DNA from: Pseudophaeobacter sp.
GTDB lineage: Bacteria > Pseudomonadota > Alphaproteobacteria > Rhodobacterales > Rhodobacteraceae
Assembly: GCA_027019165.1 (NCBI GenBank)
Contig: JALUXC010000012.1
Span: 440,773-504,772, forward strand
Length of the DNA: 64,000 bases
Direction: 5' to 3'
The position numbers and the translations under genes were made by a program. Positions 37,613 through 61,412 of this stretch are shown here, in pieces. A model generated the notes under the pieces. The model was not told the DNA's origin. It did no database searches and was given only the letters and a program-made list of their open reading frames with translations. Within the stretch, counting starts at the first letter, position 1. The number at the start of each line of letters is the position of its first letter.

Positions 37613-42009
<4,397 letters not shown>

Positions 42010-42038
42010 CGCATTTTCGGTTTTGTGCTAACGATGAT

Positions 42039-42111
42039 GTTCCAAGAAGTTCGCAAATGTTCTCAAAAAGTTCTTTACTTAACCCGGTGTTCATGAGAAC
42101 AAAGGAGCAAC
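42039..42111. promoter_or_regulatory. LexA (SOS) operator array, alphaproteobacterial GTTC-N7-GTTC type
   Basis: GTTC at 42039, 42049, 42059, 42070 (42059-42073 is perfect GTTC-TCAAAAA-GTTC), GTTC at 42089, and GAAC-AAAGGAG-CAAC at 42097-42111. Confidence 0.7.
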
Positions 42112-42155
42112 AAAAGCGCAGTCAAAGCGCAAAGACCTGACTTGGAGGACGACAG

Positions 42156-42278
42156 ATGATCGCACAGCTGAAATCAACGCTGCAGAATGCTCAATCCACC
42201 CTTCTGCAAGATGCCATTGGCGCTGGCGCATTGATGGTCATGCTCGTGGCAGCGCTCCACATTCCAGGGCTGTTCTGA
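42156..42278 (+). CDS. Small hydrophobic protein (40 aa), putatively SOS-regulated
   Basis: Read manually: MIAQLKSTLQNAQSTLLQDAIGAGALMVMLVAALHIPGLF*; GGAGG 7 nt upstream of ATG. Confidence 0.8.
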   Translation: MIAQLKSTLQNAQSTLLQDAIGAGALMVMLVAALHIPGLF

Positions 42279-42429
42279 CCCGCAGATTTCCCTGCCTTGG
42301 CTCTTTATGGTGGCTGTGCTTGCATCCTGTCCCGAAATGATGAGGGGAACACCTGCCTGTACCGAGATCCCTTCCGGCGCATCCCGATTGCCGGAAAGCC
42401 AGTCACGTCCCGCATAGAGAGCTTTTGTT

Positions 42430-42468
42430 GCCGCCGCCATCTGCCCGGATGTGCGGCGGCCTTTTTTT
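42430..42468 (+). terminator. Intrinsic terminator about 150 nt after the small ORF
   Basis: GCCGCCGC/GCGGCGGC stem with inner CATC/GATG, followed by T7. Confidence 0.8.
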
Positions 42469-42486
42469 GGCGGTCCGGCGTTGGGA

Positions 42487-43902
42487 CTAGCTGGTAAAGG
42501 CCATCCGCAAACCACCCCAGTGACGCCCGTTCACAGTGATCGGCGCTGAAAGATCTTTCATCATCACAAATTGACCGCCCCCCATGTCGCGCCGGTAGAC
42601 CTGCATCAGGAAGGGGCCGGTATTGCGTCCAGCCTTTAGGCCAACGCGATCATCAAAAATCCTGCGATTGCGGCAGTTGGCCATGTTCCAATCCGGGTCT
42701 GGGCCCTGGGGATGGGAAAATTTCTTATTGTGCGTCGGCAGATAGCCGTTCACATCGACCGCAGCTGAGAAGACAACCCGCGGATCGAGGTCCAGCGCGC
42801 TTTCCAAAAGAGGCGGTAAGACGCTATCGGTGAATTTCGTGAATCCGGTCATCACCTGCTGCGGATTCGTGTTCGGGATCGGCACATACGTCCGGTCAAA
42901 AAGCGCAGCCTCGGTGATCTGTCCGCTCTCAAGGCCTTTTTGGAACAGGTCGGCGATATTAGCGGCCATGTCCGTGACAAAGGCGATGAACTTCTTGTCG
43001 GCGGATTGCCCGCCGAGCGCGATTGTTCCCTGCACAAGCCGTTCGGAGGAGGCAACAAGCTTTTCAACCCGATCATGGGCGTTGTGAATACCAGTCGTGG
43101 TTTCCTCAACCGAGGTCTTGATCCGGTTGATATTGGGAAAGCAGGCCTCCATGGCATCGCGCACGGTTGTGGCGTCGCTCAAAATGCGGGTCGTGCCGGT
43201 GCTGACATGCTGAGTGTCTTTCTCAATTCCGAGCAAGGAGGCATCGGTATCCCGGGCCTGATCCAAAATGCGGCTTGCCGATTGTGAGATCGTCTCGGTT
43301 TCCTGGTCCAGGTCCTTGATCCAGGCGTAAAGAGTTTCGATGTTCCGGCTGATTTCACTTGCAGCAACGGTGGTGCGTTTGGACAGATCGTTGATCGCTT
43401 CGGCGACAACGGCAAAACCGCGCCCTGCATCGCCGGCGCGTCCCGCTTCGATCTTTGCGTTGATCGCTAGGATGTTCACCTGGGCGGCAATGGCGGAAAT
43501 TTTTTCGTTGTCCTTGCGCATTGCGTCAACCGTATCGGCGACGGCCTCTGTACGGTTGTTGAGGTCCTGCACCCATTCGGCAACCTCTTGTCCGTGGCCG
43601 CTGCTTTCGCGGACCAATGTGACTGAGTTTTGAACGGAGGCAAGGGTCTGCTGCGCGGATTTGGTCACCGCGTCTACGGTTTCCATCACCTGGGCGTTTG
43701 CATTGACAACGCGTTCGGCGCCGCGATCAAGCTGTTTGAGGTCGTCCAGCTGGGTTTTCGACTTGCATTCGATCGCGTCCAAAAATCCGGCGATATCCAC
43801 GATTTCAAAGCCGAGCTGGGAGGAGATTTCAGCCAACTCATTCATGTCTGCATCGGCACCAAGGGGTGCTGACGGCTGAGGCGCACTATTCAACTTCTGC
43901 AT
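42487..43902 (-). CDS. Soluble methyl-accepting chemotaxis protein with C-terminal sensor-like domain
   Basis: Hairpin-tip motif [27 protein letters not shown]; no TM segment; about 170-aa globular C-terminal domain. Confidence 0.9.
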
Positions 43903-60659: not shown

Positions 60660-61364
60660 TCAGTAGCTTCGGATCAGCCCGACCAGCCGGCCTTGGACTT
60701 TGACCTGGTCAGCCGGATAGCTGCGGGTCTTGTAGGCAGGATTCGCAGCTTCGAGTTCGATGGTGTTGTTCCGCCGGAATATTTTTTTCAAAGTCGCCTC
60801 ATGGCCTTCGACCAGGGCGACAACAATGTCGCCATCATCTGCCGTGTCGGTTTCACGGATGACTACGATGTCGCCATCGTTGATACCGGCGTTGATCATG
60901 GAGTCCCCGCGAACTTCCAACGCGTAATGTGCACCATTGGAACTCAACATGGAGCTTGGCACGCTGATCCTGTTGGAGACCTGGCTGATCGCTTCGATAG
61001 GGACACCGGCAGCAATACGCCCCATGACGGGCAGATCCATTGCGGTGACAACGGATGGGGCGCTCAGGTCTTCCCCTTTGGAGGCGCCATCAACTCCGGA
61101 TTGCCCGCCTGCAATGACCCTTGGCTCAAACGCGTTGCCTCCACCGATGGAGTCAGGCAAGCGCAAGATCTCAATGGCACGGGCACGATGGGCAAGACGG
61201 CGGATGAAACCACGTTCTTCCAAGGCCGTAATCAGCCTGTGAATGCCAGACTTGGACCTCAGGTCCAGTGCGATCTTCATCTCGTCAAAGCTGGGCGGCA
61301 CGCCGTCTTTCTGCATGCGGGCGTGAATGAACTCCAATAGATCCAATTGCTTTTTCGTCAGCAT
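60660..61364 (-). CDS. lexA: SOS repressor LexA
   Basis: [36 protein letters not shown] catalytic Ser/Lys dyad. Confidence 0.98.
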
Positions 61365-61381
61365 GTCCGTCCCTTTGCGCC

Positions 61382-61412
61382 GTTCTATTATTGATTTGTT
61401 CTACTCCTGTTC
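61382..61412. promoter_or_regulatory. LexA autoregulatory boxes
   Basis: Perfect GTTC-TACTCCT-GTTC at 61398-61412 and degenerate GTTC-TATTATT-GATT at 61382-61396, upstream of lexA ATG 61364. Confidence 0.8.

What the first reader, a model, noticed from the sequence alone, without database searches (positions are those of the whole stretch)
42039..42278. SOS-boxed 40-aa hydrophobic peptide gene after recG: candidate SidA/TisB-like damage-response effector
Seen: ORF MIAQLKSTLQNAQSTLLQDAIGAGALMVMLVAALHIPGLF with GGAGG RBS, an amphipathic N-half and a single C-terminal TM. Upstream are four GTTC tetramers phased 10/10/11 bp apart (42039, 42049, 42059, 42070; last pair is a perfect GTTC-N7-GTTC), another GTTC (42089) and GAAC-N7-CAAC (42097). 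The same box type precedes lexA in this window. Established: GTTC-N7-GTTC is the alphaproteobacterial LexA operator, and tiny SOS-induced membrane peptides act as division inhibitors (Caulobacter SidA) or persistence toxins (E. coli TisB, DinQ). Inference: a tightly LexA-repressed, functionally uncharacterised Rhodobacterales analogue. One perfect box is expected about 1-2 times by chance per window, so the case rests on clustering and position. It may already be annotated as a hypothetical protein elsewhere.
Basis: partly seen in the sequence, partly recalled or inferred. Interest (0 to 1): 0.72.

Follow-up and report, generated by a model that had tools for sequence, protein, structure and literature searches.

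The report
LexA-boxed membrane peptide plus RNA tail
Just after the DNA-repair gene recG, this marine bacterium and nearly its whole family carry a small gene unit with DNA-damage repressor (LexA-type) sites on its promoter, a 40-residue membrane helix and a conserved folded RNA tail; it is a strong but untested candidate for their unknown damage-induced membrane effector, perhaps a brake on cell division.

Summary
The ORF 42156..42278, its GGAGG ribosome site, the GTTC tetramers at 42039/42049/42059/42070/42089 and GAAC-N7-CAAC at 42097 are all present.

The gene is real. Its codon pattern shows purifying selection. It is a single-copy, near-core gene in 332 of 401 sampled genomes of GTDB Rhodobacteraceae, and several apparent absences are diverged copies. 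It was found in none of 199 other alphaproteobacterial genomes. recG lies directly upstream in 79 of 80 loci.

The LexA reading is well supported in silico:
- The two boxes rank 23rd and 41st of 8.6 million genome positions under a matrix built from this genome's own SOS promoters.
- They are conserved in about 80 orthologous loci.
- They bracket a TTTACA-N17-GAACAA core promoter, an arrangement like that of recA.

Its loops are C-rich and a near-invariant terminator follows. Covariation supports it and it matches no Rfam family.

Function is untested. My best guess is an SOS-induced membrane effector, possibly a division inhibitor, on a transcript that also yields a regulatory RNA. It is not a sequence member of SidA or TisB. 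Earlier notes of this scan describe the same unit in other genomes.

The parts
39919..42009 (+). recG (696 aa). It is the conserved upstream neighbour, and no terminator is evident between its stop and the unit's promoter.
   Evidence: Pfam hits DEAD, Helicase_C, RecG_wedge and RecG_dom3_C. recG lies directly upstream in 79 of 80 related loci. The sequence is shown.
42039..42073 (+). Distal operator array of four GTTC half-sites (42039, 42049, 42059, 42070). The last pair, 42059..42073, is a canonical alphaproteobacterial LexA box GTTC-N7-GTTC.
   Evidence: The matrix built from this genome's SOS promoters ranks it 23rd of 8.6 million positions. Across 81 orthologous loci the 4th, 3rd, 2nd and 1st GTTC are kept in 80, 78, 71 and 51.
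42074..42079 (+). -35-like hexamer TTTACT. Orthologs have TTTACA in 63 of 80, and TTGACC or TTGACG in some.
   Evidence: It abuts the fourth GTTC and lies exactly 17 nt before GAACAA in 77 of 79 loci. That this is the -35 element is inferred; the transcription start was not mapped.
42097..42111 (+). Proximal inverted LexA-like box GAAC-N7-CAAC (reverse complement TTGTTG-N5-TTGTTC). Its first six bases, GAACAA, occupy the -10 position.
   Evidence: Ranks 41st of 8.6 million positions under the matrix. Present in 79 of 81 loci, with CAAC in 76. Near-identical to the proximal recA box GAACAAGAGGCGAACAAAGC.
42112..42155 (+). Probable 5' UTR, with the Shine-Dalgarno GGAGGA at 42144..42149.
   Evidence: The start of the UTR is inferred from the promoter geometry.
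42156..42278 (+). Gene for a 40-aa protein (stop codon included). It has a polar amphipathic N-half and one C-terminal transmembrane helix. Conserved core: TLLQDAxGAxxLxVML..LHLP.
   Evidence: Codon-position entropy is 0.76/0.37/1.39. AlphaFold2 gives a single helix over residues 2-39, pLDDT 84.6. The family has 1071 clusters at 90% identity and 390 at 50%.
42286..42422 (+). Structured 3'-UTR RNA forming a four-way junction. 5' single strand UUUCCCUGCCUUGG (42287..42300). Long closing helix P1 (42300..42316 with 42399..42422, with a conserved bulge GUCCCG at 42407..42412). Hairpins H2 (42322..42342, loop CCUGUCCC), H3 (42343..42372, loop CUGCCUGU) and H4 (42372..42396, loop GCAUCCCGAUU; UGCCUCA in most orthologs).
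   Evidence: Covariance-model hits at 42286..42467 (R1, 91 bits) and 42286..42466 (R2, 78 bits). One full-length hit per locus in 60 of the 61 sources searched with R1; with R2, a hit at the expected place in 71 of 72 sources, plus one spurious reverse-strand terminator hit. 91.7% of cells are paired against 33-49% in slid controls, and 38 of 44 pairs show compensatory changes, in every helix. No Rfam match. Coordinates.
42430..42468 (+). Intrinsic terminator GCCGCCGCCAUCUGCCCGGAUGUGCGGCGG followed by U7. It is nearly invariant across genera.
   Evidence: 13 pairs, 98% paired, 8 of them with compensatory changes. The simple scan did not flag it.
60660..61412 (-). lexA (234 aa, 60660..61364) with its own perfect box at 61398..61412. 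It is the presumed repressor.

Best explanation
This is a DNA-damage-inducible transcription unit specific to Rhodobacteraceae, placed directly behind recG.

Inferred regulation. In undamaged cells LexA dimers occupy two operators. The distal direct-repeat array ends at the -35 hexamer. The proximal inverted box covers the -10 position and the start site. Together they bracket a weak TTTACA-N17-GAACAA promoter and shut it off. After RecA-stimulated LexA cleavage the promoter fires.

Shown or modelled parts. The transcript is about 360 nt. It carries a gene for a 40-residue protein that is modelled as one continuous helix. The polar, amphipathic N-terminal half, with the invariant TLLQDA motif, probably stays in the cytoplasm. 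The C-terminal 20 residues span the inner membrane.

Inferred mechanism. The most likely action is binding to a membrane protein complex. My first choice is the late divisome (FtsW/FtsI/FtsN), which would delay division until repair is done, as SidA does in Caulobacter.

The RNA tail. The same transcript ends in a conserved four-way-junction RNA with five or six C-rich single-stranded motifs and a strong terminator. The structure is shown; its role is inferred. It most likely stabilises the transcript or is released as a 3'-UTR-derived regulatory RNA. Because no terminator separates recG from the unit, recG read-through may supply a basal level of it.
For: Real gene:
- Third-codon-position variability far exceeds that of the first and second positions.
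- 40-aa orthologs occur in 80 named loci of at least 15 genera.
- One copy in each of 332 of 401 family genomes and in 129 of 139 genera.
- Diverged copies turn up in genera the profile missed.
- Absent from 199 other alphaproteobacterial genomes.

LexA control:
- AT-rich GTTC-N7-GTTC sites in this genome sit at recA, lexA, uvrA, radA, imuA, an imuB-like gene, tag, an mmcB-like gene and a radical-SAM gene. The gene names are my reading of the N-terminal sequences; only lexA and recG context was checked further. The shared consensus is tTGTTC-N6-TGTTC.
- A matrix built from those sites ranks the two sites of this promoter 23rd and 41st genome-wide, 52 bp apart.
- The recA promoter has the same layout of a direct array followed by an inverted box, with a near-identical proximal box.
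- tag also has a third half-site at 10-bp spacing.
- The boxes and a fixed 17-nt spacing around a variable spacer are kept in 77-80 of 81 loci, and in distant genera whose peptides are only weakly similar.

Membrane helix: AlphaFold2 gives one helix, pLDDT 84.6. Hydropathy and hydrophobic moment agree.

Housekeeping character: single copy, with synteny recG -> unit <- nifU-like gene in 77-79 of 80 loci.

No SulA homolog in this genome.

RNA tail.
Against:
- The second half of the canonical box is AGTTC rather than the consensus TGTTC. The proximal box has CAAC instead of GAAC. The two upstream GTTC are spaced 10 bp rather than 11 bp. Two Parasedimentitalea loci lack the N7 pair altogether.
- The -10 candidate GAACAA is poor, so another sigma factor or an activator cannot be excluded.
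- The phased A-tracts could contribute DNA bending rather than LexA binding.
- Nothing ties the peptide to the divisome specifically. That step rests on analogy with SidA, YneA, SosA and similar proteins.
- The peptide has no sequence relation to any known division inhibitor or toxin.
- The structural alignments came from covariance models, which biases pair counts towards the model's structure.
Confidence: 0.4

Rival explanations
1. A type I toxin-like SOS peptide in the manner of TisB or DinQ. The induced peptide inserts into the inner membrane and lowers the proton-motive force, causing growth arrest or persistence. The long structured UTR keeps the primary transcript poorly translated or controls its decay.
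For: A LexA-boxed promoter. A very small hydrophobic single-helix product. An unusually long, highly structured untranslated region on a tiny mRNA, which from my own knowledge is typical of tisB, dinQ and hok mRNAs.
Against: No Pfam hit to any family, including TisB-type toxins. Single-copy, syntenic and near-universal in one bacterial family. The polar half has an invariant motif (TLLQDA), which suggests a specific partner rather than generic membrane damage. Predicted full-length folds show no consistent pairing between the ribosome site and the 3' UTR: 15 of 76 pair with the 3' UTR and 54 of 76 with the ORF. No antisense RNA could be looked for.
Confidence: 0.15
2. The RNA is the main product. 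The unit is an SOS-induced regulatory RNA, released from the 3' UTR or acting as the whole transcript. Its repeated C-rich loops (CUGCCUG, UGUCCC, UGCCUC) either pair with G-rich ribosome-binding regions of target mRNAs or titrate an RNA-binding protein. The small ORF is then secondary, making a dual-function RNA.
For: The four-way junction and the loop motifs are at least as conserved as the peptide. Covariation is seen in every helix. The RNA is still detectable in genera where the peptide profile fails. Five or six copies of a similar unpaired motif recall sponge RNAs or multi-seed sRNAs (my own knowledge). There is a strong dedicated terminator.
Against: The ORF is itself under clear purifying selection, so it is not a by-product. 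A search for complementary sites in this genome gave chance-level counts. The only perfect 11-mer beside a start codon is at what looks like a plasmid replication-initiator gene (my reading of the sequence), which is not a conserved target. No processing or expression data exist.
Confidence: 0.17
3. An SOS-induced membrane peptide with a target other than the divisome. It might modulate a membrane protease, a transporter, a respiratory complex or a sensor kinase, or couple to RecG-related repair at the membrane.
For: The evidence for LexA control and a membrane helix is the same as above. Many small bacterial membrane proteins act as modulators of larger membrane proteins (my own knowledge). 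The strict linkage to recG is unexplained by a division role.
Against: No specific partner is indicated by gene neighbourhood. The downstream neighbours are a convergent nifU-like gene and, in 19 of 80 loci, an inserted MCP-like gene.
Confidence: 0.18
4. The GTTC/GAAC elements are not LexA operators here. The promoter would be controlled by another factor that reads phased direct repeats, or simply shaped by phased A-tract bending, and the unit is not part of the SOS response.
For: The first two repeats are spaced 10 bp. AGTTC and CAAC deviate from the consensus. Two loci have only 10-bp spacings. Isolated GTTC-N7-GTTC matches are no commoner than chance in the genome.
Against: Two high-ranking matches lie 52 bp apart under a matrix trained only on other SOS promoters. 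The architecture and proximal box closely resemble recA. Half-site bases are kept while the spacer between -35 and -10 varies. The only other phased GTTC array in the genome is at the SOS gene tag.
Confidence: 0.1

Closest known systems
SidA of Caulobacter crescentus, a 29-aa SOS-induced inner-membrane division inhibitor (from my own knowledge and the papers listed, e.g. PMC4211646)
   Same: An alphaproteobacterial gene with a GTTC-type LexA box. A very small single-helix membrane product. Chromosomal and single-copy. Both organisms lack SulA (for this genome).
   Different: No detectable sequence relation, since the peptide hit no curated family. It is 40 aa with a conserved polar N-terminal half. 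It is restricted to Rhodobacteraceae. It carries a conserved structured RNA tail. Its effect on division is untested.
TisB/IstR-1 and DinQ/AgrB of Escherichia coli, LexA-controlled type I toxin peptides
   Same: A LexA-boxed promoter, a hydrophobic peptide of under 50 aa, and a small mRNA dominated by structured untranslated sequence.
   Different: No Pfam match. No antitoxin RNA has been identified. The structured part lies 3' of the ORF and forms a closed four-way junction rather than a 5' translational lock. Predicted pairing with the ribosome site is inconsistent.
The recA promoter of this genome. From my own knowledge, the Rhodobacter sphaeroides recA promoter also has two LexA boxes of opposite orientation (Tapias et al. 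2002, cited in PMC8565304; the paper itself was not readable here).
   Same: A distal direct-repeat array followed by a proximal GAAC-N7-(G/C)AAC box. The proximal boxes are almost identical (GAACAAGAGGCGAACAAAGC against GAACAAAGGAGCAACAAAAGC).
   Different: In recA all half-sites are in one continuous 11-bp phase. Here the two operators are separated by 23 bp (42074..42096) that hold the -35-like hexamer and a variable spacer.
Dual-function RNAs and 3'-UTR-derived sRNAs, such as SgrS/SgrT, RNAIII/hld, CpxQ, and SorX and Pos19 of Rhodobacter sphaeroides (my own knowledge)
   Same: One transcript combines a small ORF with a conserved structured RNA that has exposed, repeated C-rich motifs and its own terminator.
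   Different: No processing, target or protein partner is known. The RNA matches no Rfam family. The junction-with-three-hairpins architecture is not that of the cuckoo/CcsR type I know from memory.

Membership tests
Alphaproteobacterial LexA (SOS) regulon | A GTTC-N7-GTTC direct-repeat operator in the promoter region | tested here: met
   A perfect box lies at 42059..42073. The motif definition is given in PMC8565304.
Alphaproteobacterial LexA (SOS) regulon | A match to the extended motif of bona fide SOS genes of the same genome | tested here: met
   The matrix was built from 10 sites at recA, lexA, uvrA, radA, imuA, tag and others, leaving this locus out. The distal box scores 18.2 (rank 23) and the proximal box 15.6 (rank 41) of 8.6 million positions. 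The training sites score 21-32.
Alphaproteobacterial LexA (SOS) regulon | The operator is conserved in orthologous promoters and positioned on core promoter elements | tested here: met
   Half-sites are kept in 71-80 of 81 loci. Spacing to the -35-like hexamer is fixed at 17 nt in 77 of 79 loci. The same holds in distant genera. The promoter assignment itself is inferred.
Alphaproteobacterial LexA (SOS) regulon | LexA binding, and RecA-dependent induction by DNA damage | not testable with these tools
I found no paper with data on this gene.
SidA-type SOS division inhibitors | Sequence homology to SidA | tested here: inconclusive
   The peptide hit no Pfam family (E up to 0.1) and no NCBIfam family (E up to 10). 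I made no direct comparison with the SidA sequence. The family is absent from 199 non-Rhodobacteraceae alphaproteobacterial genomes.
SidA-type SOS division inhibitors | Blocks constriction through FtsW, FtsI or FtsN when induced | not testable with these tools
   This needs expression and interaction experiments.
TisB/DinQ-type type I toxins | Homology to a known toxin family (for example Pfam TisB_toxin) | tested here: not met
   Zero Pfam families at E up to 0.1.
TisB/DinQ-type type I toxins | A cognate antisense or trans-acting antitoxin RNA | not tested
   No transcript data were available.
Any described RNA family (Rfam 15) | A covariance-model match for the 3'-UTR RNA | tested here: not met
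   No hit at E up to 1 in window 41500..43000. No hit in the corresponding region of six other loci.
Conserved structured RNA (general criterion) | Helices supported by compensatory base changes across species | tested here: met
   On alignment A7 (72 rows), 91.7% of cells are paired against 33-49% when partners are slid. 38 of 44 pairs have changes on both sides. All of P1, H2, H3 and H4 covary (an earlier count is). Independent single-sequence folds give three inner hairpins in 50 of 60 sequences. Caveat: the alignment was fitted by the model.

The most novel reading that the evidence does not exclude
The unit is the missing SOS checkpoint module of the Rhodobacteraceae, and it works through two products of one LexA-controlled transcript. 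The first is a 40-aa membrane peptide of a new family that halts division at the divisome. The second is a new four-way-junction RNA released from the 3' UTR. Its repeated C-rich loops would reprogramme translation of G-rich ribosome sites, or titrate an RNA-binding protein, after DNA damage. recG read-through would provide the basal RNA level.
Probability: 0.2. Interest if true: 0.85.

Novelty: new variant of a known kind. Interest (0 to 1): 0.66.

Why it matters
From my own knowledge, alphaproteobacteria lack SulA, and the Caulobacter inhibitors SidA and DidA are not general. How the ecologically dominant marine roseobacters, Paracoccus and Rhodobacter couple DNA damage to the cell cycle is therefore open.

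This gives a concrete and easily testable candidate. It is present once in nearly every genome of the family and is annotated at best as "hypothetical". Its promoter looks as tightly LexA-guarded as that of recA.

The attached RNA is a new, covariation-supported structured RNA class that could be entered into RNA family databases. It could also give the first SOS-linked regulatory RNA in this group. Even if the division hypothesis fails, the unit adds a conserved member to the alphaproteobacterial SOS regulon and a clean example of a small-protein gene fused to a structured RNA.

Tried and rejected
2. Family look-ups for the peptide: Pfam and NCBIfam gave nothing.
3. Rfam: nothing for the region or for six orthologous loci.
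4. The simple promoter/terminator scan found nothing in 41800..42700, although a strong conserved terminator is there. I disregard the scan's negative result.
5. RNAalifold on plain MAFFT alignments recovered only the terminator or P1. The inner hairpins needed a covariance model with a hand-set structure. My ad-hoc stem-length control was only weakly discriminating: 64-80% of real stems reach 5 pairs or more, against 32-49% in shuffles.
6. Self-regulation by pairing of the 3'-UTR loops with the ribosome site: not consistent across 76 orthologs.
7. Target search by complementarity to the loop motifs: counts were at chance level. The one 11-mer beside a start codon lies at what looks like a plasmid replication-initiator gene.
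8. A second copy of the RNA in the genome: none. The RNA outside the family: only two marginal hits in 149 genomes.
9. Literature: six searches and three papers read gave no description of this gene. The 2002 R. sphaeroides recA/LexA paper could not be opened.
10. I considered and rejected that the ORF is a chance frame in an sRNA, and that the MCP-like gene downstream belongs to the unit. It is present in only 19 of 80 loci.
Full report
OBSERVATION

recG (39919..42009; RecG wedge and helicase domains) is followed 30 nt later by GTTC tetramers at 42039, 42049, 42059 and 42070, spaced 10/10/11. There is a further GTTC at 42089 and GAAC-N7-CAAC at 42097..42111. GGAGGA lies at 42144..42149. The ORF 42156..42278 encodes MIAQLKSTLQNAQSTLLQDAIGAGALMVMLVAALHIPGLF. 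lexA lies in the window on the minus strand (60660..61364), with a perfect box 34 nt upstream at 61398..61412.

A single perfect GTTC-N7-GTTC means little by itself. The window has 4 against 1.9 expected, and 12 of 100 shuffles reach 4. The genome has 120 against about 139 expected. Arrays of three or more GTTC phased at 10-11 bp occur at only two places in the 4.3-Mb genome: here and in front of a gene I read as tag, a 3-methyladenine glycosylase.

THE ORF IS A REAL GENE OF A LARGE, UNNAMED FAMILY

- A search of 5.8 billion proteins returned 40-aa relatives at 60-98% identity. They are unnamed or called "hypothetical protein". A profile found 1071 clusters at 90% identity and 390 at 50% identity.
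- There is no Pfam or NCBIfam model.
- The invariant core is T15, D19, G22, L26, V28, M29, L34 and P37, within TLLQDAxGAxxLxVML..LHLP.
- Across 70 distinct 40-codon orthologs the column entropy is 0.76, 0.37 and 1.39 at codon positions 1, 2 and 3. This is the signature of a translated gene under purifying selection.
- AlphaFold2 with the family alignment gives one helix over residues 2-39, mean pLDDT 84.6.
- The N-half is amphipathic and slightly polar. The C-half is a typical membrane span. The few positive charges lie N-terminal, so I infer an N-in, C-out orientation.

DISTRIBUTION AND CONTEXT

- Eighty named loci cover Leisingera, Phycobacter, Phaeobacter, Pseudophaeobacter, Tritonibacter, Ruegeria, Sedimentitalea, Roseovarius, Sulfitobacter, Pseudooceanicola, Cognatishimia and others.
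- In 79 of 80 loci recG is immediately upstream. In 77 a convergent nifU-like gene follows.
- The MCP-like gene at 42487..43902 in this window is a lineage-specific insertion, present in 19 of 80 loci.
- A six-frame search of 401 species genomes of the order, all in one GTDB family, found exactly one copy in 332 genomes and in 129 of 139 genera.
- None of 199 genomes from other alphaproteobacterial families had it.
- Some apparent absences are diverged copies or contig ends. Using the RNA model described below, 9 of 20 "negative" genomes gave a hit. The 8 loci that could be inspected upstream all showed a hydrophobic small ORF; 7 also showed GTTC/GAAC boxes, the upstream sequence examined for L102 being too short to show them; the ninth hit (L097) lies at a contig start.

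THE PROMOTER

The AT-rich GTTC-N7-GTTC sites of this genome lie in front of genes whose N-terminal sequences I read as recA, lexA, uvrA, radA, imuA, an imuB-like polymerase gene, tag, an mmcB-like gene and a radical-SAM gene. They share the extended consensus tTGTTC-N6-TGTTC.

I built a matrix from ten of these sites, leaving out the present locus. It ranks the distal box (42059) 23rd and the reverse complement of the proximal box (42097..42111, TTGTTGCTCCTTTGTTC) 41st among 8.6 million positions. The two lie 52 bp apart.

recA in this genome has the same plan. A direct array GTTA-N7-GTTC-N7-GGTC is followed by GAAC-N7-GAAC. Its proximal box (GAACAAGAGGCGAACAAAGC) is nearly the same string as the one here (GAACAAAGGAGCAACAAAAGC).

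Across 81 orthologous loci:
- The fourth GTTC fused to TT(T/G)AC is present in 80.
- The third GTTC, 11 bp upstream, is present in 78.
- The second is present in 71 and the first in 51.
- GAAC-N7-NAAC is present in 79, with CAAC in 76.

The roughly 15 nt between the two operators vary freely in sequence. Their length does not: exactly 17 nt separate the TTTACA-type hexamer from GAAC in 77 of 79 loci. In some distant genera the hexamer is TTGACG or TTGACA.

I therefore read TTTACA-N17-GAACAA as the core promoter. The distal LexA box abuts the -35 element. The proximal box covers the -10 element and the start site. This geometry should give tight repression. It is inference, because the start site is unmapped.

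Deviations from the LexA consensus:
- AGTTC replaces TGTTC in the second half of the canonical box.
- CAAC replaces GAAC in the proximal box.
- The two upstream half-sites are spaced 10 bp rather than 11 bp.
- Two Parasedimentitalea loci have only 10-bp spacings.
- tag shows that a third half-site at 10-bp spacing recurs at another SOS gene.

A near-invariant terminator (GCCGCCGCCAUCUGCCCGGAUGUGCGGCGG followed by a U-run, 42430..42468) lies 173-281 nt after the stop codon in 79 of the 81 loci; the other two are cut off by a contig end. The sequence between the stop and the terminator holds repeated C-rich motifs.

- A first covariance model (R1) found one full-length match directly after the ORF in 60 of the 61 sources searched; L022 gave none at E<=0.01. 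The window hit is 42286..42467 at 91 bits.
- It found no second copy in this genome. It found only two marginal hits in 149 genomes of other families.
- A second model encodes a closing helix P1, three hairpins and the terminator (R2). It aligned 72 matches from 71 of 72 sources, one of them a spurious reverse-strand terminator hit.
- On that alignment 91.7% of cells are paired, against 33-49% when the 3' partners are slid by 1-3 columns.
- 38 of 44 pairs show changes on both sides. Every helix (P1, H2, H3, H4, terminator) covaries. One P1 pair, for example, reads CG 35, UA 16, GC 15 (the earlier count is).
- The alignment was fitted by the model, which favours the structure. Independent single-sequence folds of the interior nevertheless give three hairpins in 50 of 60 sequences, with stems that differ between genera.

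The conserved nucleotides are mostly unpaired:
- the 5' single strand UUUCUGCCUG;
- the loops CCUGUCCC (H2), CUGCCUGU(CCC) (H3) and UGCCUCA (H4);
- a P1 bulge (A/G)UCCC(G/A);
- the terminator loop.

Rfam 15 has no match, either in the window or in six other loci.

MECHANISM

Shown:
- a translated-type small gene for a membrane helix;
- LexA-type operators conserved on both sides of a fixed-geometry promoter;
- a conserved four-way-junction RNA and terminator on the same strand;
- family-wide, single-copy linkage to recG.

Inferred:
- LexA represses the unit and DNA damage induces it.
- The peptide acts on a membrane partner.
- The RNA tail stabilises the message or is released as a regulatory RNA.
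- recG read-through may feed into the unit, since no terminator is apparent in 42010..42038.

Among possible peptide functions I rank a division delay first. The genome has no SulA. SOS-induced small membrane division inhibitors are the rule in groups that lack it (papers). The core-genome, single-copy pattern fits a checkpoint component. A TisB-like depolarising peptide, a different membrane target and an RNA-centred function all remain open, and I give them explicit odds in the rival explanations. I found no consistent pairing between the ribosome site and the 3' UTR. I found no above-chance complementary targets in this genome.

COMPARISON WITH KNOWN SYSTEMS

The unit works like SidA, TisB or DinQ in regulation and product size. 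It is not a sequence member of any curated family. Unlike them it carries a structured RNA module 3' of the ORF. The promoter resembles this genome's recA promoter.

I found no publication on the gene or the RNA. One comparative study states that recG of some alphaproteobacteria appears LexA-regulated (PMC3323433). Whether that reflects boxes such as these, which lie downstream of recG, I could not tell.

EARLIER NOTES OF THIS SCAN

After I had reached the reading above, a word search of earlier notes showed that other agents had described the same unit in eight other genomes. They also saw LexA boxes, a membrane peptide of about 40 aa, a folded RNA tail in most cases, and conservation across the family. 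They reached the same tentative interpretation. One note says the gene is expressed, which I could not check. These notes are not independent evidence. They do show that the feature is general, in line.

VERDICT

I class it as a new variant of a known kind, an SOS-controlled small membrane protein of a new family fused to a new structured RNA. It is of good interest because it is family-wide, unstudied and directly testable.

Noticed in passing
G000 contig C24, about 384247..384300 (outside the window): A gene I read as tag (3-methyladenine DNA glycosylase I) has the only other phased GTTC array in the genome, GTTC-N7-GTTC-N6-GTTC, directly before its ribosome site. A third half-site at 10-bp spacing therefore recurs at another SOS gene.
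   Followed up: partly
window 42487..43902 (-): A 471-aa protein with an MCP signalling domain. No hydrophobic N-terminus was apparent on reading the sequence. It sits between the unit and the nifU-like gene in only 19 of 80 related loci, so it is a lineage-specific insertion and not part of the unit.
   Followed up: partly
window 39919..39922: The ligA stop and the recG start overlap (ATGA). ligA-recG therefore looks like one operon, which the LexA-boxed unit follows without an evident terminator.
   Followed up: no
G000 contig C10 near 179454 and 158180; contig C20 near 1143 (outside the window): High-scoring LexA-type boxes also precede small genes next to what looks like a large serine recombinase gene, and a gene for an 88-aa protein. 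These are probably mobile elements whose genes are tied to the SOS response.
   Followed up: no
L049 and L050 (Parasedimentitalea), about 95-115 nt before the ORF: These two loci have three GTTC at 10/10 spacing and no N7 pair, as if one 11-bp unit had been deleted. The proximal GAAC-N7-CAAC box is intact.
   Followed up: no
L100 and L102 (two unnamed genera): The small ORF here is of a different sequence type (MKT..R..A..AIEDALGL..IC..I..GFAAT...). In L100 it sits behind the same kind of boxes; in both it precedes a weaker match to the RNA model (the L102 upstream sequence examined was too short to show boxes). This is either a diverged branch or a replacement of the peptide.
   Followed up: partly
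G000 contig C13 near 43981 (-) (outside the window): GGGACAGGCAG, the perfect complement of the H3 loop, lies 7 nt before the start codon of what looks like a plasmid replication-initiator gene. Genome-wide counts of this 11-mer are at chance level (5 against 4.5 expected).
   Followed up: partly
window 42097..42120 and orthologs: The first roughly 22 nt after the -10 position (GAGAACAAAGgnGCAACAA) are conserved far beyond the LexA half-sites. They may also serve at the RNA level as the 5' end of the transcript.
   Followed up: no
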